Shown: piece by piece, positions 56 through 63,453 of the stretch
Layout of the letters: each line of letters starts with the position of its first letter
How positions within the stretch are numbered: the first letter of the stretch is position 1
Assembly (NCBI GenBank): GCA_965178125.1
Contig: OZ237751.1
Coordinates: 806,001-870,000 of the forward strand
Length of the DNA: 64,000 bases
Source of the DNA: Bilabrum cf. latius
Lineage: Eukaryota
Direction of reading: 5' to 3'
Notes under the pieces: generated by a model
What the model saw: only the letters and a program-made list of their open reading frames with translations
What the model was told of the DNA's origin: nothing
Database searches by the model: none
Position numbers and translations under genes: made by a program

Positions 56-1737
56 ATGAGCAGAAACTCGCGGCAGTGGCCTGTGACAAGTTTTGGGTGT
101 TCGCCTAGGTTTGAGCCGACCAGTTATCAGCGCTCTGGCGACACGGAACCGGGACCAGAAACACGAGGCCACCTCGACTTGACTCGGTCCTCCCACAATC
201 GCGCTGTTCAAGTCGGCATGGTAAGATCATCTCGATACGTGAAACAGAACTAACATGAAGTTTCTGTGGTTCGTAGTATGTGTCGAAGGCCCATGGAAAC
301 TAGCGTGTGCCTACCATCTCCTTGTTTTTGCAGCAAGCGTTCGGCTCTTTCCAGCAAAGAGAAGTTTCTGACTACGACAAGGCGTTCCCCAAAATGCGAG
401 CTACTAGTAGGGCAGTGCATCCTTCTGATGTCATGGGCGTGCCGCAGAAGTTTGTCCAATCCATTCAACGCGGCATGGAAGCAGCCACAACCACAACCTT
501 GCGACCGCAGTCAACTTCGGCTACCGCCGCGCGGCACAGCCCGACTCACTTGCAACCAACAGTGTCGAGTGCGAGACGCCGCCAGCTCGCTGTCTCCAGG
601 CGAAGGTTCCTTGAGAGCACAGGGAGGGTGCGCCCGTCCTCGGCAGCGACCAATGCCGCCACCGCCACCGCCGGGACGAGGAGCCCGTCGTCCAGGGCCT
701 CTTCGGCCGCGGGTGACGCGGGGAGGCTGAGCTCTAGCAGCGCGTGGTTGTCGCCTGCCACGGTGCAGGGAGATGCCGGCGCTGTACCGGAACTGGAGCC
801 GAGCGAGCAGCTGCAAAGGTCGGTCTACGCCACGCAGTCAGGCGCCAACCGCCCCCACCCTCACTCGTCACACACCTTTGGCAGGATGGCGGTGGACCTG
901 GCGGCCCCCGAGGCTGAAGAGCCGGGCCCCGGGGCGTACTACCCCGAGTGGGCCGTCCCCGGGGGTGGTGGGGTGGCCACTCTGGCAGCCGACTGCTTCT
1001 CCTCTACCAGCCGAAGGTACGCCATGCGGGGCACCATTGGGTTCGGCAAGAGGTGGTGCACGGACGGAGCGAGAAATGCAGCCGTGCCTGCGGGGACTTA
1101 CGTCAGTAATGACGCAAGGGCGCATCCGAGTCCCCACAACTATGACGTCATGGGAAGTGAAGCGGCAATGAAAGCCAGGAAGGGCTGGAGGCCGCCGCCA
1201 CCAGACGCCATGCAGGCCACCAGAGCCAGGGCCAGGGTCTCAGCAATCGCCAGGAAGGCGATCGGGCTGGGGCCTGTCGCTACGGAACATGCTCCGCGCG
1301 GCGCCGCGGCTGCAGTGGTGGCAGCGCTCCCAGCCTCGCCCCTCGGCTGCATATCGCAGGATGGTGACCCGATGGAAGGCGCAGGCGGTGGGGCGGCGGG
1401 CCTTGTCACAGACACAGGCACCGGGACAGGCACAGGCACAGGCAGCGGGCGCGCCCTTGTTGATGATAAGCTGCCTGGCAAGCTGCAAGGACAGGGGGCC
1501 TGGGCGAGGCTTGGGGTGCCGGAACTGTCTTTGGCTGCAGAGAGTGATAGCAGGGGTACAGGGCCTACAAGAGTCCGCGAGACCGCTGGGAAGGGGGATG
1601 CAGCGCGTGCTGCGGCCGTTCCGGTTCCGGCCGACTCGAAGCAGGAGGAGCTGCGGCGCGTGCAGGCGGAGCTCGACCGAGCCAGGCGCGAGGTAGCGGC
1701 TTTGGAGAAGGCTATGAAGTAGAATTCGCGGTATTGA
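56..1737 (+). CDS. SHIPPO-repeat/ODF3-like (probable flagellar) protein; exons 56-220 and 277-1737
   Basis: Intron 221-276 (GTAAGA...CTAAC...TAG) joins ORF 56 to the frame of ORF 307..1722. TAGs at 301 and 1720 are read through; ends TGA 1735-1737, followed by TAA. Motifs FGCSPRF..EPGP, EPGPGAYYP and PSPHNYDV resemble SHIPPO PGPGxY repeats. Confidence 0.6.
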
Positions 1738-1839
1738 TAAGGTTATCGCGTTTCGTCATCGATTGCCCAGAATGAGCGAACCGCTGGAACGAACCTTCAT
1801 CGAATTCTTGGAAATTGCCAAAATCACATATTTGACACC

Positions 1840-2647
1840 ATGGGGTTCCTCTTCTCCAAGCCAAAGCCCCCGCCGCCTCCTGAACCATCTCCCAAAGAAA
1901 AAGCCGAGCTGGAGTTGCGACGTCAGATGGTCAAGGTTGAGAGAATAGCTAGAAAGGTAAGCAAAGTGTTACTTGGCAAATTGCAAACAGCACTGATGAG
2001 GAGCTCTAGATCGCTATGTGTTTTGCTACTGCATTCTTTGTTCACTGTAGATGGAACATGAAAGGGACAGGTTCGACGCAAAGGCGCGAGAGATGCTTCG
2101 AGCTGGCAAGCGAGACGAAGCGAAACGAGTGTTGAAGCTGAAGCAAGTTCGAGTCAAAGCAGTGAATGTGGCGCGGGAGAGTATCCACAAAATGCAATTG
2201 CTCGTAGTCAATATTGAGACGAAGCAACAACAGATTGATATGATGAAAGGCATGGAGGCTGGCACGAGTCTGCTAGAACGGCTTAACTCCGAGCTGCCAC
2301 CTGAACGGGTGGAGGAAATATTGGGTGCCAGCGAAGATGCCGTTGCTGAAGCGTGGCAAACAGCAGAAATGATCGCTTCTTCGAGTTCGGGGGAGCCTCC
2401 AATCGACGAAGCAGCGCTCAATGCTGAACTCGATGCTCTCGTCGGCGGCGTGAGCGCCGCCCCGCCTGCGGCTGCGCCGGTGGCTGCCGGTGCAGCGGCA
2501 GAAGCAGGCTCAAGAGCAGGTCAAGATGATAGTGTGGACGTTTCCAAGCTGCCCGATGCGCCAACAGAGCCTGCACAAGTCGCGGAGGCAGCAGGGGGTG
2601 CTGCGGCAGCCGAGGCAAGCAGGAGGGTCGCAGTGCCAGCCTCCTGA
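1840..2647 (+). CDS. VPS20: ESCRT-III Snf7-family protein, Vps20/CHMP6-like; exons 1840-1956 and 2051-2647
   Basis: MGFLFSK myristoylation-type N-terminus; AELELRRQ..K..R..KR.LKLK helical Snf7 pattern; acidic tail with LPDAPT. Intron 1957-2050 (GTAAGC...TGTAG, phase 0). Ends TGA. Confidence 0.85.
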
Positions 2648-2762: not shown

Positions 2763-5700
2763 TCAGGTGGCCAAGACTGCAGTGCCGCTGTCTGACTCAG
2801 CGGTCGCACCGACGCGCATGAGCTCGACTAGCCCTGCCTCCATCAAGCGAATCCTGCTGGATCGGAACTGGCCAGAGACTGAGAGTCTACTGGGTACCAG
2901 AACTGGTGCTTTGGATCCGGCCTCTGTCTTGGCAGCAGTAGCAGCAGCAGCAGCTGAGTGCTCTGCCACCACTTCTGCGGCACGGTTCATCTCTTTCTGG
3001 TTTTCGATCAACCGTCGGATGGCTGGGATTAGCCTGCGCGCATCTGCGGGTCTGGTGATCCGTTCATATGCAATCTCCGTCCCGTCCTCATCATATTCGT
3101 CTTCTAGGTCGTGATCTTGGTGGTGGTGGTGTTCGTGCTCGCTTCCACTGCTGCACCCCGTAGATGCCTGTGATGGTGTGCAGCAGGCCTTGTCACCGCA
3201 GGCCTTATCGCCACAGGCCTTGTCACCGCAGGCCCTATCGCCACATGCCTTGTCACCGCAGGCCTTGTCGCCACAGGCCTTGTCACCGCAGGCCTTATCG
3301 CCACAGGCCCTATCGCCACAGGCCCTATCGCCACAGGCCCTATCGCCACAGGCCCTATCGCCACAGGCCCTATCGCCACAGGCCTTGTCACCGCAGGCCT
3401 TGTCGCCACAGGCCTTGTCACCGCAGGCCTTATCGCCACAGGCCCTATCGCCACAGGCCCTATCGCCACAGGCCCTATCGCCACAGGCCCTATCGCCACA
3501 GGCCTTGTCACCGCAGGCCTTGTCGCCACAGGCCTTGTCACCGATCTCACCGCAGCAAGCCCCAGAGACAGTAACTTCTGTTTCAGATGGCAATTCAGCT
3601 GGCTTTGTGACTACCATCAGATCAACAGCAGCAGGAGGCTGGGAATACAAGGGGCACACGGTACACGCCGCTCGATCGTACCTGATTCGGCAGCCCACAA
3701 TACCATACTGGCCACCATCTGCTGAGCTGCACACAGTGCTGGCCCCGCCGGCCTCGCTGGCCCCTCCCGTGGCGATGCTTCCCAGCTCCGTGGCAGAGTC
3801 AGGCTGTTCCCCAGCGGACAATGCAACGGCTGTTCCAAACGGGACGCCTGCCGCGGCTCGCCTCAAGAGGTCTCTGTACCGGCTCTCAGCTGAGTCCATT
3901 GTCTCCAGTGCGCGTCCCAGCGGACCACCGGCGGACAGGCGGGTCTGCAGGGTCTATCGATCAAATTCATTGCCGTCATTTCCACCGCCATCACCGTCTT
4001 TCAATTGACCCGCTGTCTCATCTCCAGCCCCAGCGCCAATAGCCGCAGAACCGTCCTGATCACCGAGCACAGTCGGTAAGAAGGGCTCGAGTGCCTCCAG
4101 CACGGTGGAGCCCATGAACATGTCAACCGCCTCAGGGGGCAGCTCGGGGAGACGGGCGAGGGCATCCTCGGGGTGAAGGGAGTCCACGCCCGCGCTAAGC
4201 TCGGTGCTAGGTGCGGTGCTGCTGCCCGTGTCTGATGCCGTGGTAGCCAACGGGTCCTGCTGCCCATCATCGCCATTAAGTACCTCCTCCGGCAGCTGCA
4301 CCGCGACGAGCGAGATGAGCACGTCCTTGGGATTGCGTTCCCTTGGTACGTAACCGTACGACTCGAGGATTTCGGCCGTCGTGCGACTCCCGTAACAATG
4401 GAATACCTCTTCCTCTTCTTCTTCCTCCTGCCGGCACCCTGCTTGATCGCCTGCACCAGTGGCTGCAGAGCGACCCCCGTCTGCCAATTCATCACCCGTG
4501 CTACAAGCTGCAAGGCCGCCGGTGGTCGGATAGTCCCGCTTGCTGATCAGGTGGAACTCCCACGGGGATAGAACTGACCCTGATTTAGATTCAGCCAACT
4601 ACTCCCCAGCTCCCGTCCTCCTGTCCACGGCAGCCTGTATCTCTCGCATGCGCGCTTCCACGGTGTTTAGATGGACCAGCTTTCCGTCCTCGCCTCGCGC
4701 TACTGCGGCGTACTCGGCAGCCGCAGAGCGCGGGGGGGCAGGACCCGACCGCGCCAGTGCCTCCAGGTCATGGGGTGGGGCCTGGCCGTCGTTCCAGGGA
4801 ACTGCCTGGTCTTCATCCTCATCATCGTGCTGCTACGCCCTGGCGCGGTCCACACCAAGCTCAACGTCATCGTCATCGTCGCTGTCGTCTCCTGGGGGCG
4901 GGCACTCGTGGTTCAGGAAATCCACCAGTGGAGCCATCGCGATGCGGGGCACGTGCCTACCGAACGCCCTGGCGCCCTGCATACAGTATGCCCACATAAA
5001 ATCGGAGTGCAGCAAGTCGTCAGCCGCCTGCTGAAGGATTTCATGAACGAGAGAAAGCCCGGCAGGGACATCACCGTGCTCGCCTTTGGCCTGGCCGACG
5101 AGTTCGTCGCAGACTGCAACGGATTCTGCCATGATTGCAGCGAGTCCAATCTATTCATGAACTGCACTTCGAGTGATAGTACCGTTCGCTAGTGTCGCCA
5201 ATTCGAGTGGCGACCAAGAAACCGGGGCATCGCCGGAAGGCCAACCTGTCGGCTTCCTATCCGCCCCGGCCTCTGCAAGCCGCTCCGCGAAGTGTTTCGC
5301 AACGGCGGCACCACATTCACTCTATGTAAACCGAGCTTGCAATGCATCGCACTAGAACGGGCCGCACCCGAGCCGTATACTGGCCACAAAAGGTTGCTGG
5401 TCCAGTGTCGAGCAGCTGCACGGGATACCGGCATCCCTCTCTACAGGTGAACACTTGCCGGCAGAGGAAAGCAAAAACTACAGCGAAAGAATGGAATCTC
5501 GGTCCTCCGTGAGAGACTCGCAAAGGCTTGCAACCTTCTGCAAGGCGACGTGGGGGCACACGAGCTCTGTTGCCGAAGCTGCTGAAGCCAGCTCCATGCT
5601 GTCATCGGTGTGCGCCTCGAGCAGGCAAGCCTTTGGCAAAGCAAATATACTGTCGTTCTTCATGATTCGACGAGGACTATGAGCGGTCACAACTTTCCAC

Positions 5701-5834
5701 CCGGAAGCGTCCGAGAACTAGAAACGAATTGACGGGTGCAACGAGCCCCCGCCCTCGACCAAGCAGGAGACTAATCGATTGCCAATCAATTCAGCTGCTG
5801 GTGGTCCAATAACCATATTCGTTGAGTCGCCCAT
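2763..5834 (-). CDS. SET-domain methyltransferase (SETD3/Rubisco-LSMT-like) with C-terminal Cys pentapeptide repeat
   Basis: ORFs 5478..5690, 4833..5132, 3954..4598 and 2763..3899 share one frame and are separated only by TAG (8 in total). Motifs GGSLHPSI, IFALPKACLL, MAPLVDFLNH, EEVFHCYGSRTTAEILESYGYV. Ends TGA. Start uncertain (in-frame ATGs at 5816, 5834 and about 5912). Confidence 0.8.
3184..3543 (-). repeat. 15-bp coding minisatellite, about 24 units, encoding ACGD[K/R]
   Basis: Tandem units such as CAGGCCTTGTCACCG / CAGGCCCTATCGCCA are directly visible. Confidence 0.97.
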
Positions 5835-6037
5835 TGCCCCCTGTTTGCGCAAGACCTGGGTCAGAGTGGGCCGGAGAAGATGCCGACCTGCAGAAGTCTA
5901 CAGCGTCATCATCTTCAAAATTGGCCCAGGCCCCGAGTTTAGGAGACGGGCCCCAAGTCTGAGGGAAGTGCTGGTTTGTCGAATCTAGCAGTTTGGCAGG
6001 TGCTGACAGCACTGACACGAACGAAATCATGCACACA

Positions 6038-7444
6038 TCATGACACACCCGCACGAACCCCAGCCCCAGCCCCCGCTGCACTGGCAGGTCGCCACCTCGG
6101 AGGCACCCGAAAGTACCGCAGCCCGTGGAGCCCTTCATCCCTGCATACAACTCCAAGCTTCTCAGCGTGGAGGAGGTGGGCCTGCGCGATGGCGATGGAT
6201 ACCTTCAGCTGCATGGCCAGCATCGGCGCGGACACGTACACCTCTGTGTTGTCGCCCATCCACTCCACCAGCTGCTTGGCCACGCCGTCCTCGTCCCGTT
6301 TCGAGTCCTGCAGCACCTGCACGCCAGACGCGAGCCGCCGCAGCCGCAACCCCCGACTGCCGCCCTCCATCAGCTGGCAGGCCTTCAGCAGATCCTCCGG
6401 GGACACGAGATCTGTCCCTCTCGCCCTGTTATACAGGCAGTAGAGGTCGGTCAGCGGGAGCAGCCCACCAGATCCATCCATGAGCGGCAGCGCGAACTCC
6501 GCCACCTGGGTCGACAGCTCCCTGTGGAACCGATCGCCTGCAACCTCGCGAGTGACTGGATTCACGAGGCAGAGCCCCTCCACTGCGGTTGCAACCTTGT
6601 CGTCGTGCGCGCTCGAGGCTTCCCCAGCGATCTGGGACGCTGCGCCCGACCGCCCGGCCCCTGCCGCCGCGGCTTTGGTGCTTCGCCTCGTCCTAGCGTA
6701 CTGCTGGGCCAGCACTGCCACCTCTTTTGCCATGCGCATGAGGCTCGAAAGGTCTCTGAACGCTTCACCTGCAACGCTAGATTCTAGCTGCAGCCTGGCA
6801 CGGTGCTGGTGGCGGATGCGGCCCATCCCCACGGCGGCGCCTTCGGCTTCGCCTGCAGCGATCGCTGCGGCCTCCGCCTCCGAGGCTAAGTCTTCGCGAG
6901 ACACAGTGATCCACGCCTTGCGTTCAACGGCAGTCATGAGGAAACCGAGAAACTCTTCGACGTCGCCCTCAACAAAGCTTATCTTCATGTCGAGTGGCAC
7001 GGTAAGATGCTTCGGGAGGCTTGTGAAGACGTGAGATTGATTCGGATGGACTGCGCTGGACGCAGCAGCGTCGGCAGCGACACTGCTGCTTGCCATAAGC
7101 TCGGCCTCCATTGCTTTCTTGAGTTCGTCACTGGCCCTTGCTCTGAATCGAAGGCGTGGGTGGCTGAACAGCGCCAAGAAACTGGGCCGTTCCGATTCAA
7201 ACTTGTCCAAGGTGGCTAGCTACCAAGCCATCGACACGTCTTTCAAGGATTCATTCACATAAACGATTCGGTGGGTAGTCAGCAGCAGCCATCCTCCCCG
7301 TCGGGAAGGATCTTTCACGCCCTTCAGGTATAGGTGCACCGTCGGGGCTTTGCAATACGCCGTCTCTCCATCGAGATAAATGAGCCCACCACTATCATCA
7401 AATTGAACACTTTCTGCCTGATAGAAATGACCAGGTGTTGACAT
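6038..7444 (-). CDS. VPS36: ESCRT-II subunit Vps36/EAP45
   Basis: The GLUE domain (G.LLLTTHRIVY ... FSHPRL) is interrupted by one TAG at 7220-7222. The C-terminal half has GMGRI, EAFRDLSSLMRMAKEV, NPVTRE, GGLLPLTDLYCLYNRARGTDLVSPEDLLKAC and CRDEGLHGLRYF. Ends TGA. Confidence 0.95.
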
Positions 7445-7556: not shown

Positions 7557-8426
7557 ATGGGGTGTGGTACTTCCACTGCCGCGACGCAGCGAAACATGAA
7601 TTCAGCTGATATTGATCGCATGCTTAAGGGCACTAGGACGCATGGGGGTCTGAACGTTGCGGGGTGCGGGTTGGAAGCCCTTCCACCGCAGCTTGTGGAG
7701 ACTTCGGTCACGTCTAGAATGAAAATCGTTGATGTCAGCAACAACATGCTAGAACAAATTCCCGATGAATTCGTTCAGGCCCCAAGAATGACGAGGCTGA
7801 ACGCCTCGACAAATCGACTGGAGGCCTTGCCGATTCTGCTCGGCAAGGAAGCACCGAAACTTGAGGTGCTGGACCTCCACTCGAACGCGCTTCTGAGAAG
7901 CCTGCCTAGAGAACTGCCTCCCATGCTTCGCGAGATCAACATTTCGGGCTGCCCTTTGACGGAGATGCCCGGGTGCGTCCTGGCGTGCACTCGCCTTCGC
8001 CATCTGAGTGCAAACAACTGCGGGATCTCTGGCCTGCCAGCAGGTTTAGAACGACTTGGAAAGCTCGAGCAGTTGCATCTCGACGACAATAACATTCAAT
8101 CGCTTGCTGGCATAAAGAGCTGGAAGACCCTCAAGGGCCTCTAGGTGGTGTCTCTGCGATACAACCGGATCGGATCTGCAGACGGTGGTGCAGCGGCGGT
8201 TGGTGGAGGTGCCACCAAATCATCCCTCCGAGTCGCTCTGCCTTCTGGGCTCTTCCTCGACACGGCGCTGCACATGCTGAGGCTGGATGGGAACGGGCTG
8301 CAGTCCGGGCAGCTGCTTGATTTGGAGGGTTTTGATGCGTTCCTACAGCGCCGCAAGTAGCGGATCGACAAGTCGATCGGGGCCGGAGGGGCGGCGGATG
8401 CTGAGGCGATTTGCGGGGTGGAGTGA
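7557..8426 (+). CDS. Leucine-rich repeat protein, LRRC57-like
   Basis: MGCGTS acylation motif, tandem LRRs, C-terminal LEGFDAFLQRRK*RIDK like the LRRC57 family. TAGs at 8142 (inside an LRR) and 8358 are read through. Ends TGA 8424-8426. Confidence 0.8.
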
Positions 8427-18769: not shown

Positions 18770-18880
18770 TTTTCCAGCTCAACTGCAGACAATTGGTCGC
18801 CGCAACAAGAAAACAAGATTCGGGATCAGAATAGAAATACGGCATACGATTTGGCTGGACAGTATTCTGTCTTCAATATA

Positions 18881-50620: not shown

Positions 50621-50654
<34 letters not shown>

Positions 50655-51287
50655 GAGCCCGAAGGCTCCTCCCTGCGGGCCTGCTGCCTGCGCCTCGAGC
50701 TGCGCGCCCCTTCCCCCCGTGACATCCCGCGTGCTGCCCATGGTACTCGCCAGGCCCAAGCTGGCCCCGAGGTCCAGGCGAGCAGGGAGGCCCGCCCTTT
50801 CTCCTCGCTAGTAGTTGCCAATGGGAGCTACTAGTCCACCGGTGGGACGAGGGAGGGGAGAGTGAAACGGGGAGGTCAGCGAATGCATGCTGCCCGAGCG
50901 GTGAATTCTTGCGAGATTCACCTAATCTGAATGGGTTGCGCCACGCAAAGGTGTGCTGGGGGCCAGCTGTCCGCCTGCTTGAGCAGCAGCATCGGCTGGC
51001 TCGGCATGCCCTTGCCGTGCGCCATCTCGCACAAATTGAGCGCGTAACTGTTCCAGATAAGCGATTCGATGGGACAGCTTGGTTCCTCGTTTTTCAACTT
51101 TTGAAGCACATTCGCTTCGAAGCTCTCGTCGGGCCATCGTCCTAGCTTGCATGGACTCTCGCAACACGTCCCGACGGGACGCTTGCCCCTGCTGCATGGG
51201 GAGCATTCCGCTCTCATCGCGTGACAAGCGCATAAAAAATATACTGTCACTTGCAGCAACGCTTTTACGTAGCCATCCGGCCGACAT
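48219..51287 (-). CDS. MRS2: MRS2/CorA-family magnesium transporter with large low-complexity insertions
   Basis: LQPRDLRSID..ALLVRANCLVVSL..VRALV..DRVLLF; MPFELRALEALL; LLEDDQDV; ELVVESY; L.SQRNLLLRLD; GVFGMNLRSGLEE (GMN motif). Five ORFs in one frame, 6 TAGs. Ends TGA. Start approximate. Confidence 0.9.
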
Positions 51288-51459: not shown

Positions 51460-52899
51460 ATGGGCGCCCAGATAGGAAGTGTGCCGTCTGCACCCTCAAA
51501 AGGGGTCGAAACCCCACGGAAGTACGGCCATCCGTCGGAGCCGCAGGCCGAATCAAAGACGCTGCTGTCTGAGACAGTGGAAGGGTCCAAACCTGGCGAG
51601 CCCGTTGCGGAATGGGTGTACGTCGACGATGGGGACCCCGTCTTTAGATAGAAAGCTTTGTTGATCCACAACTTGCTCAGTGATGAGGAGTGCGGCGCTA
51701 TTGTGGATATGCTCGAATCGAGAGGTATGGAGGCTTGCTACGGCTATCGTGCCGAATATCGAAACAATGGGCGGATCAAAATTGATGACAAATCCTTTGC
51801 TTCGGTTCTATGGGAACGTTGCCGCGGCATCATTGAGAAAGACCTCCCTTGTGATGCGGACGAGCACCCGCAGGACTCCCTGCCGACCGCGGAGAGCATC
51901 GCGAAGCGAGGGGTCGGGCTGCGGGACAGCGGCAGCCCCGAGCGGGACGATTCGTCTGACGACAAGTCCAAAAGGCGGCTTGAGCTTAAGTTTGGCCGCA
52001 TCTGCCGCGGCAGCGAATCGTACCGGTGGGCTGGCCCCGCCAGCATGGGGCTGTGGAAGCCGATCGGTCTCAATGAGATGTTCCGGGCCTGCCAGTACAT
52101 GCCTGGCGGGCACTTCAGTCCCCACGCGGATGGTTTCTTCGAGCGATCGTCCAACGAGCAGAGCCTTCTCACCTTCATGATGTACCTGAACGACGTGCCA
52201 GAGGGCCAGGGCGGCTGCACGCGGTTCTTCAAGTTCGCCCCCATGCGCCCTACGGACGTGGACGGGCAGGGTAGGGTGGTGGGCAGCGCCACCGATGTGG
52301 TCATGAAGGTTCGCCCGCGGCGCGGCACCGCGATCGTGTTCCCCCAAGGTATGATGAAGCACGACGGAGAGCCCCTTGGGGGAGGGGGCGCTGCGTTCGT
52401 CAGGTTTGCAGAGGCGTCCAAGAGAAAGATGACGAGTGGCACCGGCAGCAAGACCGATGCATGCGCAGGAGGCTCGGGCTCAGGCGCAGACAAGACGTCA
52501 AAGGAGGCCAAGGAAGACGAAGTGAAGACTGCCAGCGCAGATCGAGCGATAGCCGACGGAGAAAGTGACGGTGCAGACACAAGGGGTGCTGGTGCCGGTG
52601 CTGTATCCGGACCCGCAACAGGGGATGCCGGCGCAGACGCTCCACCAGATGCCAAGTCCGCGGGCGGTGCGGCTGGCAAGACCCCTGTCGCCAAGGGCCT
52701 CACCAAGTACATACTGCGCAGCGACGTGATGTACACTCGCGAGCCCGGCGGCACCGTTGAGATGGACGACGAAAAGTCTGAGGCACTGAGGTTCACGCGG
52801 CTTGCCAGGCGCCTGGAGGGCAATTCAGACTTTGAGGGGGCGAGGCGCGCCTATTCCAGAGCCTTCAAGCTTTGGCCCGACCTGGAGAAGTACATCTGA
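51460..52899 (+). CDS. Prolyl-4-hydroxylase-like 2OG-Fe(II) oxygenase
   Basis: LIHNLLSDEEC, YRNNGR, GLNEMFR..Y.PGGHFSPHADG, LTFMMYLND..GGCT.F, KHDG, KYILRSDVMY. N-terminal MGAQIGS joined through TAG 51649. Ends TGA. Confidence 0.9.
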
Positions 52900-53071: not shown

Positions 53072-56000
53072 TCACGGCTGCCCCTATCCCTTGGTCTGCT
53101 CCTGTCCATGTCCCGTATGCTCCACGACAGCCACCATTGCGCACAAGAGCTCCCGCAGCCTCGCGAGCGCCAGTTCCCCCACCGGCCAGACCTCCGCTGC
53201 AGGGTCGGGCACGTACTCCCATGGCTACCTGTCACTGCCACTGCCACTGCCTCGAGGACGACCGGGCCTCCTTGCTGCGCACCCGAGTGCCTGGTGGGAA
53301 TGGGATTCTTGCTCCTACCCTACATCGTGCTCACTGATAGCTTTATTTCCGCTATTTAGCCGAGCTAAGCGTCTCGCTGCGGCTTGCAGCATCGCAGTCG
53401 CCGGATGCTTCCCGACCTGCGGACTGCCTCGTGCTGCGGTGCTGGCCCTCAAACCAGCCTCACCCGCTAGCACGTGCATCTCCTGTCGTAAGCTCCGGTC
53501 GATCATGGCCTGGGCCACCTCTGTCTCCGCTTGAGCCACAGTCAGCCCCAGCGCCTGCATGGAGCGGGTCATCATGCCCAGCTCCAGCCGGACCTGCCAG
53601 CCTGCCATCTCAGCCGCCAGTCGTTCCAGCTGTCCTTGCAGCTCCTGAACTATGGGCTCAGGCGGGTGAGCACGGGCCTTGAACGACTCTATGGCCTCCA
53701 GCTCCCTCTCACCCTGCACCTCCTTGAGTGCACCAGGTCCGTGCACACGCAGTGGGGCACCTGGTCGTGTCCCACCCTCGCTCCCATCTGCAGTCCGTTT
53801 CAATCGGTTCAAATCCTGCATCATGAGCTCGTCGGATGGCGTGACTCGGCTCTTGATGGCATCGACCCTGGCGAGAAGGGAGTACGCAGCGGCTTGCGCC
53901 TTTCGAATGTCTCGCAGACAGTCCTGGCGGCGAGCGGCTTCAGCTTCAGCGGATGCAAGAAGGGGACGGCCATCGCTGCGTGCCTACGGGTCACCGCTCC
54001 CTTCCGCTATTTGATGCGATTGCTCTTCGGCCTCTCCAACACCCTCCCGCGCGCGTTCCTCCAGCTCATCCACCGCCTCTGCGAGCCCATGCGCCTGGCT
54101 GAAGAGCACCTTGCTGCGGGCCGCCAGCGGGCTGGCCGAGAGCTTGACCGCGAACGTGAAGCGAGTGCCCTGCACGGTGCTGGCAGGAGGTCGCGCGGAG
54201 TGCGGGATGTTACCATTGAACAGGGCCGCTCTTCCAAAGCGCGGGCTGACAGTTGCGATCACCTCCAAGCTCGGTCTGCTACCCCGGGTGCCTCCCTCGG
54301 CGCGCTGGTGTCCTGGCCTGCCGATATCCTCGTCTTCATCTTCCTCGGCCCCGCCCTCGTCCTCTTCATCCTCGTCATCCTCGTCATCCTCGTCATCCTC
54401 GTCTTCATACTCATTTGGATCGCCGCTTCTTTCTGTTATTGGATTCTCGACAGCGTCGTCCCAGAACATGGTCTCGCCGCCGTCGCCGTCCCCTAGGTCC
54501 TCGTTCAGGTAGATCAGCAGCGTGCGCTCCACCTCGTTCTCGCTCGAATCCGTGTGGTCTCTCGTGTGATCCCAGGCGCGTATGATGTTGCAGCTCACGT
54601 CATACGGGTGAAATCCCTCCCAAGGAGCTGCCGCGTCCACTAGGCCCTGCAGCGCGCCCCCCCATAGCCTGCTCCCCACGAGCGCAGCCACCTCTGCCCC
54701 GATGATCCACTGCACGTTGTCCGAACTCGGGCTCTCCGAGTCGTCAAACGATAGGGTGGCATTTTGTGCAAAGTACGCTCGCAGAGCACGCAGCATTCGC
54801 CCAGTCTCTGATCCTGCCATTGCGCCGTCCACCACCGCCAGCCGGCGGCCTACGGAGGTCCATCGCAACACGGCTGTCAGGTTGCCCTGCTGCTCACTCC
54901 GCTGCTGCGAATTGCTATCAGACTAGTTCGCACGGCTGTAAGTGCCAAATTCTGTCTCAGGGAGGTGGAAGACGCCCCTGGGGAAAGTCTCCCATGGCGA
55001 GGGAGCGAGCGCCATCGACACCATGAACTGCTCCACTGGACGCAGAGGGGAGAGCAGCGACTGCTGCGTCTCTCCGCCGGGTCGATCTACTTCCGGCCCA
55101 CGGGTCGACCGCGAAGATTGAAAAGCCGACACCAGGTCTTCATTTTTGCCAAACTCAGGGGTTTCCGCAAATCGGTCTGGGTGCAATTCGCCAGGCGGCT
55201 CGGTGTCTCGCTCTACCGGCGGCAAGGCGGCAGCCGACGCACGCGCCGCCAGGGCAACCGGGCGAGCCATCGCGTGCATGATCGTTTCCATGCAAGAGTG
55301 GATAGAACCCGCGCTGCATGCTGCAGCGTGATCTTCTCGTGGCTACTGCGCCGCCGAGTTGGTCGCAAGCCGCGAGGAGGCGAGCTCGGGCTGCTAGGAA
55401 GCGAGCACGGCAGTCGACAGGAACACGCTGCTCTTGCCGTGCTTGATCGACGGCGGTGTCACTCTAACCCCTGCTTGTCGCCCTGCATCAGAGCCGCAGT
55501 CCACGACCAGTGCTCTCCCAGCCGTCGGGCGAACGGCCGTGATTGCCTCCCAGCTGCCCGCAGGTGCGCTGCTCCGTTGGTGCACCACCAACTCGCCATA
55601 CCCGTCGTGGCCGTCGCCCCCACCAGAGCCAAGCGACATCAAAACTTGATAACGCAAAGGTGCATCTCCCATGGTCTTTTTGTCGGGACAGACGGGGGCT
55701 GTGCGGGTGGGGTCGCCCCGGCGAGCTACGACTGCGAAGGATTCTGCAAATTTGCTTGGTGGTGCCCATGTTCCAGATCCAGCGTTGCCGGCCAATTCGG
55801 CAACAATGGAATTGATTTCTTGCCCCAAGCTAGACTATGACAGCAAGCTGCTTCGAATTTTAGAGCCAAACTTCATGCCTGGAAGGTACGTCGCGCTGGA
55901 GCCGCGATACTACGAGCCCTGTATGTTTGCACGACTGCGCACAGGCATATTTTCCCAATCTCCTCCCAAGGACAAGTACTCCCTCCATTCAGCAGCATGC

Positions 56001-56149
56001 TAATGAGCGGCCGGTATATCGCAGTACCATCCCAGCGGCTCGTCGGAGTCTGCGCTTCGAAGCTCCTCGCACACAGCGCGGTGCCCTGAGTTTGGTTCCG
56101 TTCCAAGGCTGAGCTCAGTCAAGAAAGCAGCAAATGCGAGCACCTGCAT
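53072..56149 (-). CDS. About 1025-aa protein with putative signal peptide and 2OG-Fe(II) oxygenase domain(s)
   Basis: Five ORFs in one frame, about 10 TAGs. DHTD..TLLIYLN..GGETMFW..VSPRFGRAALFNGNIPHSARPP..RFTFAVK. An upstream degenerate copy (GELVV..VRPTAGRALVVD..PPS). Ends TGA 53072-53074. Confidence 0.8.
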
Positions 56150-56340: not shown

Positions 56341-58176
56341 ATGTTTCTTCTGGTAGCGGCAGCAATCGTAGCGGTGTCGCACGCGCGGCGCGAAGTTAGG
56401 TTACCTCCGATTAATAAGCCGATGAGTGTCGCAGAGCTCAAAGCGAGCATTTTGCGAGAGTTTGAGGAGCCTCGTGAGGAATATCAAGCGAACCACGATG
56501 AAGTATCTTCTACGCCCGACCATGAACCTCCTCACGAGGTTCTGTTTACGAATGTCATCGGCGGGGACGAGGTTGAAGAGGAAGCTCGGGTTGCGATCGT
56601 GTCCGTGCCGCGCTCCGAGCTTGACTACGCAATGCTCCACCCGGCAGGATCTCATCTGCACGGATATGCATCGACTGAAGACATCGAAAGAGCGGGGCAC
56701 ATGCTTGTGAGGTGACTCAATCGTCTTTTGCCCGCGACAACCAAAGACTCGCCCACCAGTCAGCACGCACCACGCATCATGCTTCTTTGCACTTGACCGC
56801 AGGTAGTCAACTTGAACAAAGCTGGAATGCACGTGCACAACATGCAAGATAACCTCTTGTACTACTGCTAGTCGAGGAGGGGCCGTGAGACTATCGTAAA
56901 CGCAAGTCACAACCACCTGGAGTACGCATTCGAGGGAAGCCAGTGGCAGCTCACCGCAGACGAGAAGGCGCTGCTCTCTGAAGAGTACAAGGAAGAGGTG
57001 CTCCAGCGGCTGGGATGCCACGAACTCATGGAAATTCTGGTCAAGCGCCCCAGGATCGTGCTGCAGAAAGCCAAGCGCCCGGAGCTGGGCCAGGCCCTGG
57101 ACATCGCGCGCATCGAAACCAGACCGGTGTTCAAGAACATGTTCACGCGGCAGCACCTCCTGCCCACTCCTGCCGGCATCGTGGTTGGACGAGCAGCGCA
57201 CCCCTCGCTCGCCGACAGCCAGGAGCAGCTGCTCCTCGGCCTGCACATCGCGGGCGGGGAGCCGTTCGCCAAGGCAGGCGAGGACATCACGTTGGAAGGG
57301 GGCGACTATTTTTGCCTCAAGGCATCCAGAGACCTGACTCTGATCGGAACCGGGCGCCGCACCACGGAGGCAGCGGTGCGCTGGCTCATGCGGATCGGGG
57401 CGCCGCGCACTCGCAGGATTGCCGTCGTGCGGAACCTCGACGACGCTGCCCCGGAGCGCGCCCACCTGGACACCGTCTTCAACGTGTTCACCTCGCAGAA
57501 GGCCATCTTGCTGGACCGGACGGACGACGGTGATGAGGGCTACAAGCGCGTGGTCGACCTCTGGGAGCGGCCTGAGGGAACAACGGACCCCGAGGGGCCG
57601 GGGGATGCCCCCACCTCGGGGACGGGGTCCTATACAAAGACCCCCGGCAAGCAGGGGATCCCCCTGGGGAAGTACCTCAGGGAACAAGAGGGGTACGAAG
57701 TCATCCGGATGTCCCTGGGGCAGCAGGAGAACTTCTTCTCCACCTTTGCCCACCTAGGGGGGAAGACGATCCTCACCGGGTCACAGGAGCTGGAGGCGTT
57801 TGCCAGGGAACACGGGGTGTCGGAGTAGGAGGCGCAGTTCCAGTACCTCCCTGTGGAGGCCGTGCATGCACTGCACGGTGGTGTCCGCCACGCCGTCCTG
57901 CTTGGCCGCCAGCTCCCGTTCGGTACGGAGGAGGGCTTCCCCTAGTCGCAGGAGGAGCACGAGGCCCTGGTGAGGCAGGTGTTGGGGGTCAGGTTCGTGC
58001 CGGAGGATGGGGCCAGTGGGGAGGAGGAGCAGGAGGAGGAGGAGTGGAGGAGGTAGGATTCGGGCGGGGTGCCGTTCGATGAGATAGAGATGGCAGGGGC
58101 ACAAGGCGATGAAGACCACGGGCTCGGGCTTGGAGGTGGAGATGGGGAGGTGGGCACGGGCCGCGATTCGCTATGA
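56341..58176 (+). CDS. Arginine deiminase-like (amidinotransferase fold) protein with signal peptide, probably catalytically altered; intron 56707-56802
   Basis: LHPAGS, SEEYKEEVL, NMFTRQH..TPAGIVVG, LEGGDYF, LIGTGRRT, HLDTVFN, LHGGVRH. 4 TAGs; ends TGA. Confidence 0.8.
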
Positions 58177-58481: not shown

Positions 58482-59258
58482 TCACGTTGCTGCACCTCCA
58501 GCCGCTTTCGACCTTGATTCCTCCTCTTTCTCCTTCTTGATCTCCTCTTCCTCGTCGCTGTCCAAGGGCGGGATCTCGTCGTTCCGCACGGCGAGCGCGG
58601 GACACTCGAAATTCGCGTAGGTCTCGTACTGGTACACGAGGTTGGGGATGCTCGGCCGGAACTTGCAGGTCGAAACTCCCAGCAGCTCGCGCAGTTTGGT
58701 CTCGTTCTCTCGTATTGTTGTTCCCAGGACCTTGCCGATCGGTTTGCCTTCGTCCGATTTGCCGCTCTTCAGCAGCAGTGCAGAGGCCTCAGCGTACTTG
58801 GCCCACACCTCGTGCGTAATGAAGGGCGGATCGATTACCACCAAATCAAAGGTTCCGTGCAAATCTGGGCTGATGTCCTCCGGCTTATTGAAGTCATAGA
58901 AAACAAATCCTGGGTCCTTTCCGAAGGCAGTAGAGTCAAAGTCGAAGCACTTGCAGCTTCGTCTAAGGTCTGCCGAGACTGAGTAATACAGCGATGGAGT
59001 GGACAAGAATGCCACGTTGCCCCCACATTCTTCGATAGCTTGCACAAAAACATCAATCGTGTGCTGCGAGTACCAGTACTGGTTCATGTCCTCCTTCTGC
59101 GAAGCTCATTGGGGAGTTGCAGTTGGGTCTCGACCAATGTGACACGCATTCAAATCGTGGACAGAATCCGGCTACTAGTCTCCAACGATGTCACTCACTT
59201 CTTCAACATCTTTCAGAAAATTTGCTTTGGAGACATCAGCCTCCGCAGATGCAGCCAT
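58482..59258 (-). CDS. EEF1AKMT1: EEF1A lysine methyltransferase 1 (N6AMT2/Efm5); intron 59097-59198
   Basis: EDMNQYWYS..T, VAFLSTPSLY, FVFYDFNKP, FDLVVIDPPF, CKFRP..Y.NF. Intron GTGAGT...CGCAG. Ends TGA. Confidence 0.92.
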
Positions 59259-59553: not shown

Positions 59554-62500
59554 ATGCCTACGAGGGAAGCAGTGTCAGTTGTCAAGGGCACATCTGCTGG
59601 AGCTGCTGCGAGGTTGATGAAGTCTCCTGTCGAAGCTGCGGCACCCAACCCGGTCGGAAGCAAGCCGAGCAACGCCGATGAATCCCCGTATGGCGGTAAT
59701 GCTTCGTCAAAATCGCCATGGAACACGGACGGGTTGAGCGTTGCTGCTCTCGCAGCGCTGCACGGCGAGCTCGAGCTGGCTACCGAGTTGGTGTCGAACA
59801 GACACTTCGTCCAGTCACCCGACGGCATGATGGAGGAAGCGAAGCCCGACATCCCCGTGCCGAAATGGCTGCTTCGCGATCGCTCCGGCGCAGCGATCGC
59901 CGCCAGGGTGCGCAGGAGGCAGCAGCTCCTGCAGCCGCTGCTCCATGGAGACATGCAGCCGGCACCCGCCCTGGCAGTGGCACCCGCGCCTGCTGTACAG
60001 CTAGCCTCGGCCTCCCCCGTGCGTCCACGTGCAGGCGGCGGAGCCACTCGCAACGGCGAGACAGGCGGCGCCGCGCACTCTGTGTTCCGCTAGGCCAGGG
60101 GCTGGGCGCTGCTGCGGCGGGCCGTGCTGCAGCCCGGGTGGCTGGCGGAACACGCGGACGGCCTGTGGCCCGGCGCTGTTCCCCGCCCCCCGCGCGGGGG
60201 ACTGGAGCTAACCCTGGAGGTGCCCAAGCGGCTCGCGCCCCCGAAGCCTGCGGAACCGACGGGCGCCGAGGCGGCGCCGCGCAGGCACGGGTCTGGTCCG
60301 GAGGGGTGGCAGGGCACGGCCTGGCTGCAGGTAGGCGGGGGGGACGCAGCCGGCGCATCGCCCACCGCGGGTGGGGACGAGGAGGATGACGATGACGATG
60401 GTGCGGACCTGACGGGGGAGGAGACCCTCTGGACGCCGGAGTCTTGTTCCCCGGAGCATGGCTGGGTGCGGATGCCGCTACGGGTGAGGCGGGGCAAGCG
60501 CCTGCCGGGGGGGCGCGTGGAGCTGAGGCTGTACTCGCCCCCAGGAGGCACGCCCGCCGACGAGCACTGTGCGATTCCCGTCCACTGGCAGGCGCAGGAG
60601 GCGGCGGGCTCCACGGTGGGGCCGAAGGGTGTGACGAGTGCGCAGGACGGGGTCCGCCCGGGGACGGCTGGTTCTGCGGGGTCTGTGCGAGGGTCGTCTG
60701 CGTCTGCCGGCAGGGGCGGGGGCGGGGGCGGCTCCACGGGGCGGGGCGGGGGCGGGTCCGTGCGCGCGGATCCTGACGAGTGGGCGACTGAAGGTGGGTA
60801 CGAGAGCGGGGCCAGCGAGGAGGAGGAGGTGGCGGTGCCCGTGCGGGTGCTGCTGCAGGCGGGTCCGGCGGGCAGAGCTCCGCTGCTGCGCTGCCGCATG
60901 AACGGGCGCGTGGGCGTGGAGGAGCTGGAGGCCTGTCTCGAGGCCAAGGGGAAGGACAGCCTGGCGGGGACGTGGAGGGAACAACAGGCGGGGGCCGTGG
61001 AATCGGAGCTGAAAACCGGCGGGAGAGACAGCAGCCACAGCAACGGCAGCAGCAGCAGCGCCGGCCCGTGGGGAGGCAAGGTGGACGAGGACCAGGGTGA
61101 CACCGACGATGTGACGAGTGTCAGGGAACACATCCAGGGGTCGCGCTCGCTGGTAGGCACCACCCGCGTGGTGGACGTGCTTCAGGTGGGGACGGCACGG
61201 GGTTCATTCCGCTGGCGCGGCTTCCTTCTGGCACCGCCTGTACACGAGGAGTCTCCGGCGGATGCGGCAGCCGCGGCCAATCCCCGGATCCAGTGGCCGT
61301 CCTTCATCCTGAATGACGAGTGGCCCAGCGCCAGGGTGTTGCTGGGGCACAGGGGCAGCGGGCAGGACTCGGCTGCCAGGGTGGCCGCGGGGAGTCCTCC
61401 CCTCGGGTCGATTGCTTCCTCTGCTGCTGGTGCTGATGGCGGGACAGGGACAGGGACAGGGACAGGGGCAGGGGCAGGGATAGGGATAGGGACAGTGACA
61501 GATGCCGCTGCCACTCCCCCGCTGCAGCTCCCCGGGGCAGGCACTGCTGGTCGCAAGGACGTCCCAGCGGGCGTAGAGGCGGAACCGGGGGAATTGCGAT
61601 CCGGTGATGGACACACCGCAGCCGCGGCTGCTGCGGTTCGTGCGAGCCAGAGCCAGAGCATGAGCCACCCCCTCACCGATTCGTCGGGTTTGGTCCAGCG
61701 ACCCTCCCACGCGAAATCGGCCCGCTGGAGGACCCATTTCGCGGAGAATACGCTCACGTCAATCCTGCAGGCAGGTCTTGCGGGCGCCCACGGCGTCGAG
61801 TTCGACGTGCAGCTGACCAAGGACGGCCTGCCCGTGCTCTTCCACGACTCAACGGTACTATTGGAGGGCGGCAGGGTGGTGCCGCTCTCCCACCTCACCG
61901 CCGCAGACCTCGGGATCCGCACTCGTCACACCCAGGGAACAGCGTCCCAGGCGGGGCTGGGGATCGGCAGGCAGGGCAGCAGCCGACTGGCCCTGCCGCT
62001 GCCCAAGCCGGACGCCGCCTGGCTGGCTGCGGGCGGGGCCTCCTGGACCGAGTCGACTAGGCGGGCTGGGGTGGGGCGGCACGGGGGGGACTGGGCCGTG
62101 CCTGCTGCGCCGGGAGTATCGGGTCACGGTGAGGTGCCGCGCGGCGCCAGCGGAACCGGCGGGAGGGCGCGGAGCAAGGGCTCAACGGCGGGATCCTCGG
62201 AGGGCGGGCCGGGGTCCGTGGGGGACAGCGGCAGCGGGGGGGCGGCGGCGGGGGCGGTGCACCAGCGGGGCGTGTCTGGTACGAGCGCCGCGGGGGATAG
62301 CGTGGGCGATGCGCTGGCCGTGGCGGCGCGCGCAGCCGCGTCTCCGGCCTCCCCCGCTGGATCGACGGTTGGCTCGGCATCGGCAACTGGTTCCGAAGGT
62401 GGGGATCCGCCCAGGATCGCGGGGACGGACACAGGAAGGGGTGGCGAAAGTGGCACATCCAGGGAACAGCAGCAGCAGGTCGGAAAGGTCCTGTTCGAGC

Positions 62501-63453
62501 GCCGGGGCAGGGCGGCCACGGCCCCCACGGCAGAGGGCCCGGGACTGAACCGGGACTTGCTGGAGGCGGAGGCCAGGGGGCTGGATACCTCGCTGGCCGA
62601 GGCGGTGGGGGTGCACAGGGGCAGCGAGGGGGAGGTCATGGGAGTCACTTCCTTGGGAGTCACTTCTGGAGGCGGTGCTTCTGCCGAGTTTGGGGGCGGG
62701 GACGATGAGACGGGCAGCGTTGGTGGCCGGTCCACCCGTGGATCGGTGCGGTCCATCTCGCCGCCCCCCGCTACGGGGGCGAGGGCCAGGGGCGTTGGGG
62801 GATCCACCGGTGGATTGGAGCACGCCCACGCGAGCGCCCCTGGCCCGTCCCCCCTGCTGCACGACGGGGGTGTGCCCACCCTCCGCAAGGTCCTCCGCAA
62901 GGTGAGCAAGGAGCAGCTGCTGGACGTAGAGCTAAAGTACCCCACCCACCTCGAGAGCAGCATAGGGTCCGGCAAGGCCGTCGGGGCGCGCCCATGGCCC
63001 AGGGCTGCATACCTCGCCCGGGTGCTGGCGGTGCTGCGGACGCACTGTTCCCCGACGCAGCCCGTGTTCCTCAGCTCGTTCGACTGGAAGCTGTGTGCCC
63101 TTGCGGTGGCCGCGCAGAGGGCGGGGGGGCGCAGACGGTTTCCGGTTTTGCTGCTCACGGAGGCGGGCACGGAGGTGGCCCGTGAGCCCGAGGGGCGGTC
63201 GCTGATGGCGGCGTGCGAGTTCGCCAGCGCGTGGGGCCTGCAGGGCGTGGTGACGCACTGCCGGCCGCTGCTGGCCTTCCCGGAGCTGGCTCGATGGATC
63301 CGTGGGCTGGGGCTGCGGCTGGCCTCGTTCGGCAGCCCCAACAACGGGGCGGCGGCGGTGCGAAAGCAGTTCGAGGCCGGCGTGAGCGTGGTGTGCTGCG
63401 ACCACGTGAGGGAGGTGGTGAGGCGGCTGGCGAGGGACGAGAAACGGGAGTGA
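59554..63453 (+). CDS. Glycerophosphodiester phosphodiesterase (GDE1/GPCPD1-like) with long insertions
   Basis: LGHRGSG, ENTLTS, VEFDVQLTKDGLPVLFHD, VPTL..VL, DVELKYP, FLSSFD, GVSVVCCDHV. N-terminal part joined through TAG 60091. Ends TGA. Confidence 0.9.

What the first reader, a model, noticed from the sequence alone, without database searches (positions are those of the whole stretch)
1735..63453. UAG and UAA are uncoupled, and all 24 complete gene models terminate at TGA
Seen: no in-frame TAA in any reconstructed exon, although CAA is used freely for Gln, and every gene model ends at TGA (the first has TGA-TAA). Established: in most nuclear variants (ciliate table 6) UAA and UAG change meaning together. 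Inference: here TAA is either a rare stop or nearly unused. That would need an eRF1 that ignores UAG and a CUA tRNA that does not read UAA.
Basis: partly seen in the sequence, partly recalled or inferred. Interest (0 to 1): 0.85.

Follow-up and report, generated by a model that had tools for sequence, protein, structure and literature searches.

The report
Protist reads UAG as glutamine
This stretch of a GC-rich protist genome reads the stop codon UAG as glutamine, never reads UAA as an amino acid, and ends every gene here with UGA; that kind of code is known from a few other protists, but I found no report of it for an organism like this one.

Summary
The window is intron-poor eukaryotic DNA (GC 60%). 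Reading frames of 1000-2016 codons open only if TAG is read. In 17,977 codons of 23 genes I count 106 in-frame TAG, 0 TAA and 0 TGA. All 23 of 23 terminal frames end at TGA.

The only apparent in-frame TAA is an intron donor. RNA-like contigs keep the TAGs unchanged.

TAG means Gln. One TAG sits inside a (CAG)5-TAG-(CAG)3 run. In a syntenic metagenome relative that also reads TAG, 5 of 7 well-aligned TAG sites face Gln in the window's orthologue.

TAA is not a hidden Gln codon: 17-35 would be expected if it were synonymous with TAG, and none is seen. Whether UAA still terminates cannot be settled here. The count of 0 of 23 only bounds its share below about 12%. The relative's orthologue ends at TAA within one codon of the window's TGA, so UAA is probably still a stop in this clade.

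This is a UAG-only, table-15-like code, already known in Iotanema, Protocruzia and some phyllopharyngean ciliates. The lineage is unplaced and I found no report of it. eRF1 and tRNAs could not be examined.

The parts
394..1737 (+). gene g0 (no family); TGA stop at 1735-1737, followed at once by TAA 1738-1740; a TAG lies 5 codons before the stop
1840..2647 (+). Snf7/Vps20-like gene, two exons (1840-1956, 2051-2647); TGA stop
   Evidence: Pfam Snf7; a 94-base GT..AG joint in the RNA-like contigs of X5 and X7
2763..5912 (-). gene g2 (no family); 9 in-frame TAG after the first ATG; TGA stop at 2763-2765
6038..7444 (-). Vps36 (ESCRT-II) gene; 1 in-frame TAG in the GLUE domain; TGA stop
   Evidence: Pfam EAP30 2e-42; an X5 contig covers 6087-7443 with 0 differences
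7557..8426 (+). leucine-rich-repeat gene; 2 in-frame TAG; TGA stop
8500..14535 (-). CLU/TPR-like gene of about 2011 codons; 22 in-frame TAG; TGA stop
14675..18769 (-). gene g14 (no family); 9 in-frame TAG; TGA stop
18758..20659 (+). gene g18 (membrane protein, no family); 5 in-frame TAG, one of them 7 codons before the TGA stop
21019..24045 (-). leishmanolysin (M8) gene, two exons; the intron of about 23164-23301 begins GC|GTAAGAG and holds the only TAA that abuts two coding frames; TGA stop
24778..27168 (+). MscS-like channel gene 1; 3 in-frame TAG; TGA stop
27222..32750 (+). gene g27 (no family); 15 in-frame TAG, one inside (CAG)5-TAG-(CAG)3 at 30294-30320; TGA stop
35204..37840 (+). MscS-like channel gene 2; ends GAG-TAG-TGG-TAG-TGA
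38092..40983 (+). MscS-like channel gene 3; 4 in-frame TAG; TGA stop. Its metagenome orthologue ends at TAA
41101..42453 (+). gene g41 (no family); 2 adjacent TAG; TGA stop; syntenic orthologue in L001
42509..44454 (-). Cupin_8/JmjC-like gene in at least two frames (42509-43846 and 43843-44535); the exon junction was not mapped; TGA stop
44862..45686 (-). gene p1 (paralogue of p2); TGA stop
47140..48003 (-). gene p2; 3 in-frame TAG; TGA stop
48219..51206 (-). MRS2-like magnesium transporter gene (start is approximate); 6 in-frame TAG; TGA stop
51460..52899 (+). 2OG-Fe(II) oxygenase gene g51; 1 in-frame TAG; ends TGA-TAG
53072..56149 (-). 2OG-Fe(II) oxygenase-domain gene; 10 in-frame TAG, one of them 4 codons before the TGA stop
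56827..58176 (+). amidinotransferase/ADI-like gene (probably with an upstream exon); 4 in-frame TAG; TGA stop
58482..59087 (-). EFM5/N6-adenine-methyltransferase-like gene (probably with an upstream exon); no TAG; TGA stop
59554..63453 (+). GDPD-domain gene; 1 in-frame TAG; TGA stop at 63451-63453

Best explanation
The organism uses a UAG-only variant nuclear code of the NCBI table-15 type. UAG is decoded as glutamine throughout gene bodies. UAA is not decoded as an amino acid. UGA is the working terminator of every gene in this window.

Inferred mechanism, by analogy with published UAG-only codes and not shown here:
- A tRNA-Gln with anticodon CUA pairs with UAG but not with UAA.
- An eRF1 has lost recognition of UAG but keeps UGA and probably UAA.

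The run of TGA stops most likely reflects a strong preference in GC-rich genes rather than loss of UAA as a stop, because a related organism with the same TAG reading ends the orthologous channel gene at TAA.
For: TAG is a sense codon:
- Frames of 2016, 1857, 1670, 1367, 1330, 1087, 1068, 977 and 972 codons exist only when TAG is read. The longest standard frame is 1119 codons, and reading TAA alone gives no such gain.
- These frames carry real eukaryotic families: Vps36, Snf7, M8, MscS, MRS2, GDPD, LRR, 2OG and Cupin_8.
- There are 106 TAG in 17,977 codons.
- Contigs of runs X5 and X7 behave as RNA. They carry the spliced Snf7 form, which is absent from X3 and X6, and they cover TAG-bearing genes with 0 differences. 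So there is no editing.

TAG means Gln:
- A (CAG)5-TAG-(CAG)3 run.
- Gln is the most enriched residue near TAG, 1.6-fold.
- Pfam scores at 3 domain-located TAG sites sum to Q 128.4, E 129.4, S 125.3, Y 122.0 and L 119.6 bits.
- In the syntenic relative L001/L002 (14 in-frame TAG in 772 codons), 5 of 7 well-aligned TAG sites face Q in window MscS3. These include columns invariant in all three window paralogues; the other two face R and A.

TAA is not a sense codon:
- 0 seen against 17-35 expected.
- The lone candidate is an intron donor.

UGA is the stop: 23 of 23.

UAA is probably still a stop: the relative's MscS3 orthologue ends at TAA within one codon of the window's TGA.
Against: - No TAA terminator is seen in the window itself (0 of 23). 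That is fewer than at unselected flanking boundaries (8/21 and 2/12), so UAA may be disfavoured or inactive here.
- The relative's TAA is a single case, and a TGA follows 10 codons later. Read-through of that TAA cannot be excluded.
- The Gln assignment in the window organism itself rests on context and weak profile scores. The strong alignment evidence comes from the relative.
- Glu scores as well as Gln in the Pfam test.
- Two TAG sites in the p1/p2 paralogues face Ser by eye, and window TAG sites aligned to distant homologues face E, S, G, R, A and N. All of these are in variable regions.
- TAG is over-represented in the last 5 codons before TGA: 4 seen against 0.66 expected, P = 0.005, a post hoc test. 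This could mean UAG keeps some stop function near 3' ends.
- tRNA-Gln(CUA) and eRF1 were not seen.
Confidence: 0.78

Rival explanations
1. UGA is the only terminator. UAG is Gln, and UAA is unassigned or a very poor stop in this organism, because its eRF1 is narrowed towards UGA. This would be a possible way-station between the standard code and table 6.
For: - 0 of 23 genes end at TAA, although TAA makes up 8 of 21 upstream and 2 of 12 downstream in-frame boundary stops (Fisher p = 0.0011 and 0.0034).
- The NNA share at comparable codon pairs is 0.14-0.46, so a neutral A/G choice at the second stop position would give some TAA.
Against: - With 23 genes, the TAA share can still be up to 12%.
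- Against composition alone, p is only about 0.01.
- A relative with the same TAG reading ends the orthologous gene at TAA, at the homologous position.
- The first gene carries TGA-TAA in tandem, which is compatible with TAA serving as a back-up stop.
Confidence: 0.12
2. Ordinary table 6. Both UAA and UAG are Gln, and UAA is merely rare because of GC bias.
For: - TAA is the rarest of the three triplets everywhere (178 and 170 per strand).
- All genes end at TGA, as in table-6 organisms.
Against: - 0 in-frame TAA against 17-35 expected from the TAG count and the NNA share of NNR pairs (CAA 0.25, TTA 0.15, CTA 0.14); P0 between 3e-8 and 5e-16.
- TAA occurs 45 and 52 times in the shifted frames of the same genes.
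- The relative's gene ends at TAA at the homologous C-terminus.
Confidence: 0.03
3. Context-dependent UAG. It is Gln inside genes but still a terminator close to the 3' end, as in ambiguous stop/sense codes. Under this reading some genes here really end at TAG.
For: TAG is enriched just before the TGA stops: 4 in the last 5 codons against 0.66 expected, and 6 in the last 15 against 1.96 expected. Examples are GAG-TAG-TGG-TAG-TGA in MscS2, and g0, the 2OG gene and g18.
Against: - The test is post hoc, on 23 genes.
- The same pattern is expected from 'fossil' TAG stops now read through to a nearby back-up TGA.
- In published ambiguous codes the reassigned codons are depleted, not enriched, before true stops. 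This is recalled, together with the test described in PMC11687900 (passages read).
- Contigs cannot show where translation ends.
Confidence: 0.07

Closest known systems
UAG-to-Gln-only nuclear codes (NCBI table 15 type): the fornicate Iotanema spirale (PMC5304391), the ciliate Protocruzia tuzeti, and the phyllopharyngean ciliates Hartmannula sinica and Trochilia petrani (PMC11687900)
   Same: UAG is read as Gln while UAA is not. UAA and UAG are uncoupled. The mechanism proposed in those papers is a CUA-anticodon tRNA plus an eRF1 that has lost UAG recognition (passages read).
   Different: - In the ciliate cases 93.5-100% of mapped C-termini use UAA. Here 23 of 23 use UGA.
- This genome is GC-rich (60%) and intron-poor.
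- The single EFM5 tree, with no fornicate row, leaves it outside the ciliate/Colponema group.
- The best named hits are stramenopiles, at only 35-56% identity.
Other UAG-only reassignments: rhizarian exLh (UAG = Leu, PMC5304391) and the green alga Scotinosphaera (UAG = Ser, PMC8271138)
   Same: Only UAG is reassigned, and UAA is kept as a stop.
   Different: The amino acid differs. Here Leu scores worst and Ser below Gln/Glu in the profile tests. The relative's TAG sites face Gln at 5 of 7 positions.
Table 6 (UAR = Gln): many ciliates, hexamitin diplomonads, some Ulvophyceae, and Amoeboaphelidium (described as UAR = Gln in PMC5304391 and PMC11687900)
   Same: UAG is Gln and UGA is the terminator of every gene.
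   Different: UAA is not used as a sense codon: 0 seen against 17-35 expected.

Membership tests
UAG-only Gln code (NCBI table 15 type) | In-frame UAG within conserved genes, retained in RNA | tested here: met
   106 TAG in 17,977 codons of Pfam-supported genes. RNA-like contigs show 0 differences.
UAG-only Gln code (NCBI table 15 type) | UAG sits at positions that are Gln in homologues | tested here: met
   5 of 7 well-aligned TAG sites of the syntenic relative face Q in window MscS3. In the window itself there is a (CAG)5-TAG-(CAG)3 run. Profile scores give Q about equal to E, then S, Y and L. Direct alignment evidence for the window's own TAG sites is weak.
UAG-only Gln code (NCBI table 15 type) | UAA is not used as a sense codon | tested here: met
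   0 in-frame TAA against 17-35 expected. The lone candidate is an intron donor.
UAG-only Gln code (NCBI table 15 type) | UAA functions as a terminator | tested here: inconclusive
   0 of 23 genes in the window. One orthologue in a relative ends at TAA at the homologous position, but a TGA lies 10 codons further on.
UAG-only Gln code (NCBI table 15 type) | UGA functions as a terminator | tested here: met
   23 of 23 terminal frames. The C-terminus of Vps36 is identical in a 96% relative.
UAG-only Gln code (NCBI table 15 type) | tRNA-Gln with anticodon CUA, and none with UUA | not testable with these tools
   No tRNA in the window, no Rfam match, and no genome held.
UAG-only Gln code (NCBI table 15 type) | eRF1 N-domain changed at UAG-contacting positions (GTS, NIKS, YxCxxxF region) | not testable with these tools
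Table 6 (UAA and UAG = Gln) | Both UAA and UAG occur in frame at Gln positions | tested here: not met
   TAA 0 against TAG 106 in the same codon set.
Ambiguous stop/sense codes (Condylostoma or karyorelict type) | The reassigned codon also terminates near 3' ends, and is depleted just upstream of true stops | tested here: inconclusive
   TAG is enriched, not depleted, in the last 5-15 codons. Where translation ends cannot be seen from DNA or contigs.

The most novel reading that the evidence does not exclude
This unplaced GC-rich protist clade has a code with a single working terminator. The clade holds the window organism, a 96-97% relative in public runs, and a relative at 56-71% (possibly the 80% fragment too) in environmental metagenomes. 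Under this reading UAG is captured by Gln, UAA is left vacant or barely functional in the window organism, and UGA does all termination. The TAG codons stranded a few codons before TGA would be the remains of former TAG stops. That would be a living intermediate on the path from the standard code to table 6, and it arose in a GC-rich genome where TAG stops should have been common.
Probability: 0.12. Interest if true: 0.85.

Novelty: new member of a known kind. Interest (0 to 1): 0.6.

Why it matters
UAA and UAG almost always change meaning together, and each independent exception tests why.

The published UAG-to-Gln cases named here are ciliates, which terminate almost only at UAA, and the fornicate Iotanema. 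This would be a case outside the ciliates, in a GC-rich genome, with the opposite stop usage (all UGA). It separates the effect of base composition from the effect of the decoding machinery.

A GC-rich ancestor should have had many TAG stops. The TAG codons just upstream of TGA stops may therefore record how genes survived the change, that is, read-through to a nearby back-up stop. This bears on the choice between codon capture and an ambiguous intermediate.

There is also a practical point. Public gene calls for this clade are cut at TAG: fragments P0002 and P0163 begin or end at the window's TAG sites. Its proteins are therefore truncated in databases.

Five literature searches found no report of a UAG-to-Gln nuclear code in a stramenopile or in any GC-rich protist of this kind. 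The library lacks most subscription journals, and supplementary files could not be opened.

Tried and rejected
- Whole genome: none is held. Genome-wide stop counts, eRF1 and tRNA checks were therefore impossible.
- tRNA and Rfam scans of the window (Rfam also of L001) found nothing.
- More DNA of the clade was not found. Scans of genome contigs and viral contigs with the MscS alignment gave no relative. An exact 45-base window string was found in neither collection. The single metagenome scan gave only two short contigs of one relative.
- Sequencing runs: no listed holder is on record as RNA. X5 and X7 were treated as RNA-like only because they carry the spliced Snf7 contig. All four runs laid were identical to the window outside one variable patch, so they gave no comparative data.
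- The CLU search found one distant hit only.
- The representative search with the 2OG protein gave no informative residue at TAG sites: E, S, G, R, A and N, all in variable regions.
- The paralogue alignment of the three MscS genes gave one Q and otherwise R/W/H at TAG sites.
- Lineage: the atlas look-up gave only 'Eukaryota'. The EFM5 tree leaves the clade unplaced, with no supported sister. Best named hits are stramenopiles for two proteins but marine invertebrates for a third.
- Slips:
  - One search listed 4 spurious TAG contexts from a mis-framed MRS2 segment.
  - One search used a wrong frame for MscS2 and was redone.
  - One search used 9/21 instead of 8/21 and was redone.
- Earlier notes of this scan held nothing on this genome or this kind of organism.

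Full report
**What the window is.** The 64-kb window is GC-rich DNA (0.54-0.70 per 4 kb, mean about 0.61). It has no tRNA gene and no Rfam match, and no whole genome is held for it. Read by the standard stops, the longest frame is 1119 codons. If TAG is read through, frames of 2016, 1857, 1670, 1367, 1330, 1087, 1068, 977 and 972 codons appear. Reading TAA alone gives no comparable gain. These frames encode ordinary eukaryotic proteins:
- a CLU/TPR protein, Vps36, a Snf7/Vps20 protein and a leishmanolysin;
- three tandem MscS-like channels with an EF-hand region (Pfam EF-hand match in one of them);
- an MRS2 transporter, a GDPD protein and an LRR protein;
- two 2OG oxygenases and a Cupin_8/JmjC protein;
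- an ADI-like enzyme and an EFM5-like methyltransferase.

Genes are nearly intron-free. I mapped two introns. The spacers are AT-richer, with GC 0.53 outside genes against 0.62 inside.

**The observation.**
- I could define 23 genes with a 3' end. All 23 end at TGA.
- In 17,977 codons, taken from the first ATG or from exon bounds, there are 106 TAG, 0 TAA, 0 TGA, 533 CAG and 182 CAA.
- Frames were cut at TAA and TGA, so the zero needs controls.
  - None of the genes is cut by TAA at its 3' end.
  - The 8 of 21 frames bounded upstream by TAA run on into short or non-coding-looking segments, or into the wrong frame or strand of a neighbouring gene.
  - The one case where two coding frames abut at a TAA is the leishmanolysin intron. 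The sequence GC|GTAAGAG...CAG|G restores HEAIHALVF, the zinc-binding HExxH motif.
- No TAA-ended frame in the unannotated 8.7 kb has a convincing coding score. The only positive ones are artefacts of a CACCAG microsatellite.

**Is it more than chance?**
- TAA is rare but present: 45 and 52 copies in the two shifted frames of the same genes, and 14 per kb outside genes.
- At positions under no selection for termination TAA is common: 8 of 21 upstream frame boundaries and 2 of 12 next downstream in-frame stops.
- Against these, 0 of 23 true stops gives Fisher p = 0.0011 and 0.0034 (which corrects a miscount).
- Against bare trinucleotide composition (TGA:TAA about 82:18), p is about 0.01.
- The 95% upper bound on the TAA share of stops is 12%.
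- The run of TGA is therefore real but only moderately informative.

**TAG is translated, and as glutamine.**
- Contigs of two runs (X5, X7) carry the Snf7 gene with its 94-base GT..AG intron removed, while X3 and X6 do not. The listed long pieces of X5 mostly lie within single genes. They behave as RNA, although the tool only guesses so.
- Over Vps36, CLU, g2 and g14 these contigs show 0 differences from the DNA. TAG is therefore not edited away.
- For the amino acid, the window offers three lines of evidence:
  - a TAG inside (CAG)5-TAG-(CAG)3;
  - Gln as the most enriched neighbour of TAG, 1.6-fold (4 of the 113 listed sites came from a mis-framed segment);
  - Pfam scores at three domain-located TAG sites that sum to Q 128.4, E 129.4, S 125.3, Y 122.0 and L 119.6 bits.
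- The stronger evidence comes from a relative. A metagenome scan with the conserved C-terminal half of the three MscS paralogues returned two contigs from different samples, 99.97% alike and of GC 0.55-0.57. They carry the orthologue of MscS3 (56% identity), followed, as in the window, by the orthologue of g41.
- That MscS frame has 14 in-frame TAG in 772 codons. Of its 7 TAG sites in well-aligned blocks, 5 face Q in window MscS3. Two of these columns are Q in all three window paralogues (EQ and TAQQL). The other two face R and A.
- Leu (as in rhizarian exLh) and Ser (as in Scotinosphaera) are therefore unlikely.
- Counter-observations: two TAG sites in the p1/p2 paralogues face Ser by eye, and window TAG sites aligned to distant homologues face E, S, G, R, A and N. 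All of these lie in variable regions.

**TAA is not a hidden Gln codon.** The A-ending member makes up 0.14-0.46 of the NNR codon pairs (CAA 0.25, TTA 0.15, CTA 0.14). If TAA were synonymous with TAG, 17-35 in-frame TAA would be expected. None is seen (P0 between 3e-8 and 5e-16).

**Is UAA still a stop?** The window cannot say. The relative helps. Its MscS3 orthologue ends at TAA, the protein alignment ends at the same column as the window's protein, and in the DNA alignment the TAA lies within one codon of the window's TGA. A TGA follows 10 codons later, so read-through is not excluded, and this is one gene. I take it as moderate evidence that UAA terminates in this clade. On that view the window's TGA run is a preference of GC-rich genes rather than a loss.

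**Who is it?**
- Two window proteins have 96-97% identical fragments in public run assemblies, and relatives at 71-80% in metagenome or run assemblies.
- These database proteins are cut where the window has TAG. P0163 spans exactly the stretch between two TAG sites.
- Beyond this clade, the best named hits are stramenopiles: Cafeteria for Vps36 at 35%, and Tribonema and Paraphysomonas for EFM5 at 55-56%.
- For a third protein the best named hits are marine invertebrates.
- A tree of EFM5 groups the window with its two relatives (99/98 support) but gives no supported sister.
- The lineage is therefore unplaced. The single EFM5 tree leaves it outside the ciliate/Colponema group, and no fungus or animal is named among the 120 listed EFM5 hits, most of them unnamed, so an aphelid is unlikely; no fornicate sequence was compared.

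**Comparison with what is known.**
- I read passages, not whole texts, of three papers.
- PMC5304391 describes the first UAG-only nuclear codes (Iotanema Gln, exLh Leu).
- PMC11687900 adds Protocruzia and phyllopharyngean ciliates. In those, 93.5-100% of mapped C-termini are UAA.
- PMC8271138 reports UAG = Ser in Scotinosphaera.
- The present case is the same kind of code. It differs in three ways: the stop usage is inverted, the genome is GC-rich, and the lineage is apparently different.
- Five searches found no report for such an organism.

**A side observation.** TAG is over-represented just before the TGA stops. There are 4 in the last 5 codons against 0.66 expected (P = 0.005), and 6 in the last 15 against 1.96 expected (P = 0.015). 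The clearest case is GAG-TAG-TGG-TAG-TGA. The test is post hoc. It fits former TAG terminators now read through to a nearby back-up stop, or a residual stop function of UAG near 3' ends.

**Verdict.** The uncoupling is real. The code is a UAG-to-Gln-only variant with UGA as the terminator in use. The status of UAA in this organism, the tRNA and the eRF1 all remain to be tested on the whole genome.

Noticed in passing
ends of g0 (1720-1737), MscS2 (37826-37840), the 2OG gene (53072-53089), g18 (20636-20659) and CLU (8500-8544): TAG codons cluster just upstream of the TGA stops: 4 in the last 5 codons against 0.66 expected, and 6 in the last 15 against 1.96 expected (a post hoc test). They may be former TAG terminators now read through to a nearby back-up stop.
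   Followed up: partly
24778-27168, 35204-37840, 38092-40983: Three paralogous MscS-like channel genes with an EF-hand-like region lie on the same strand, 37-47% alike. The third is followed by g41, as in the metagenome relative L001 (conserved synteny).
   Followed up: partly
32751-34080 and 34090-34790: An AT-rich spacer of about 1.3 kb holds many TAA. It is followed by a microsatellite of about 700 bases, (CACCAG)n with a few variants, upstream of MscS2. The microsatellite creates open frames on all six frames.
   Followed up: no
11170-12210 (inside the CLU gene): Runs X3, X5 and X6 hold a second set of contigs here with clustered differences, a 1-base shift and odd joints. The rest of the 20 kb laid is identical. 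This may be a divergent allele or a repeated segment.
   Followed up: no
3170-3540 (-) and 8535-9250 (-): Long tandem peptide repeats lie inside genes. Gene g2 has about 24 copies of GDKAC/GDRAC. The C-terminus of the CLU-like protein has about 15 copies of a GQRM(V/A/S)SGFP(T/M)GGMP-like unit.
   Followed up: no
18719-18778: The open frames of g14 (-) and g18 (+) overlap by 60 bases, and their first ATGs by 12 (18758-18769), head to head. Elsewhere gene spacing is very tight too, for example 9 bases between the MscS1 stop and the g27 frame, and 117 bases between MscS3 and g41.
   Followed up: no
L001 1-4523 and L002 1-3815: Two metagenome contigs from different samples are 99.97% identical over 3206 bases. 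They belong to a relative that also reads TAG as sense, so the clade occurs in the environment and not only in the runs that hold the window.
   Followed up: partly
56212-56715 (+) and 59106-59336 (-): These are short frames with positive coding scores: a signal-peptide-like start upstream of the ADI-like gene, and MAASAEADVSKANFLK... upstream of the EFM5-like gene. They are probably first exons, so more introns exist than the two mapped.
   Followed up: no
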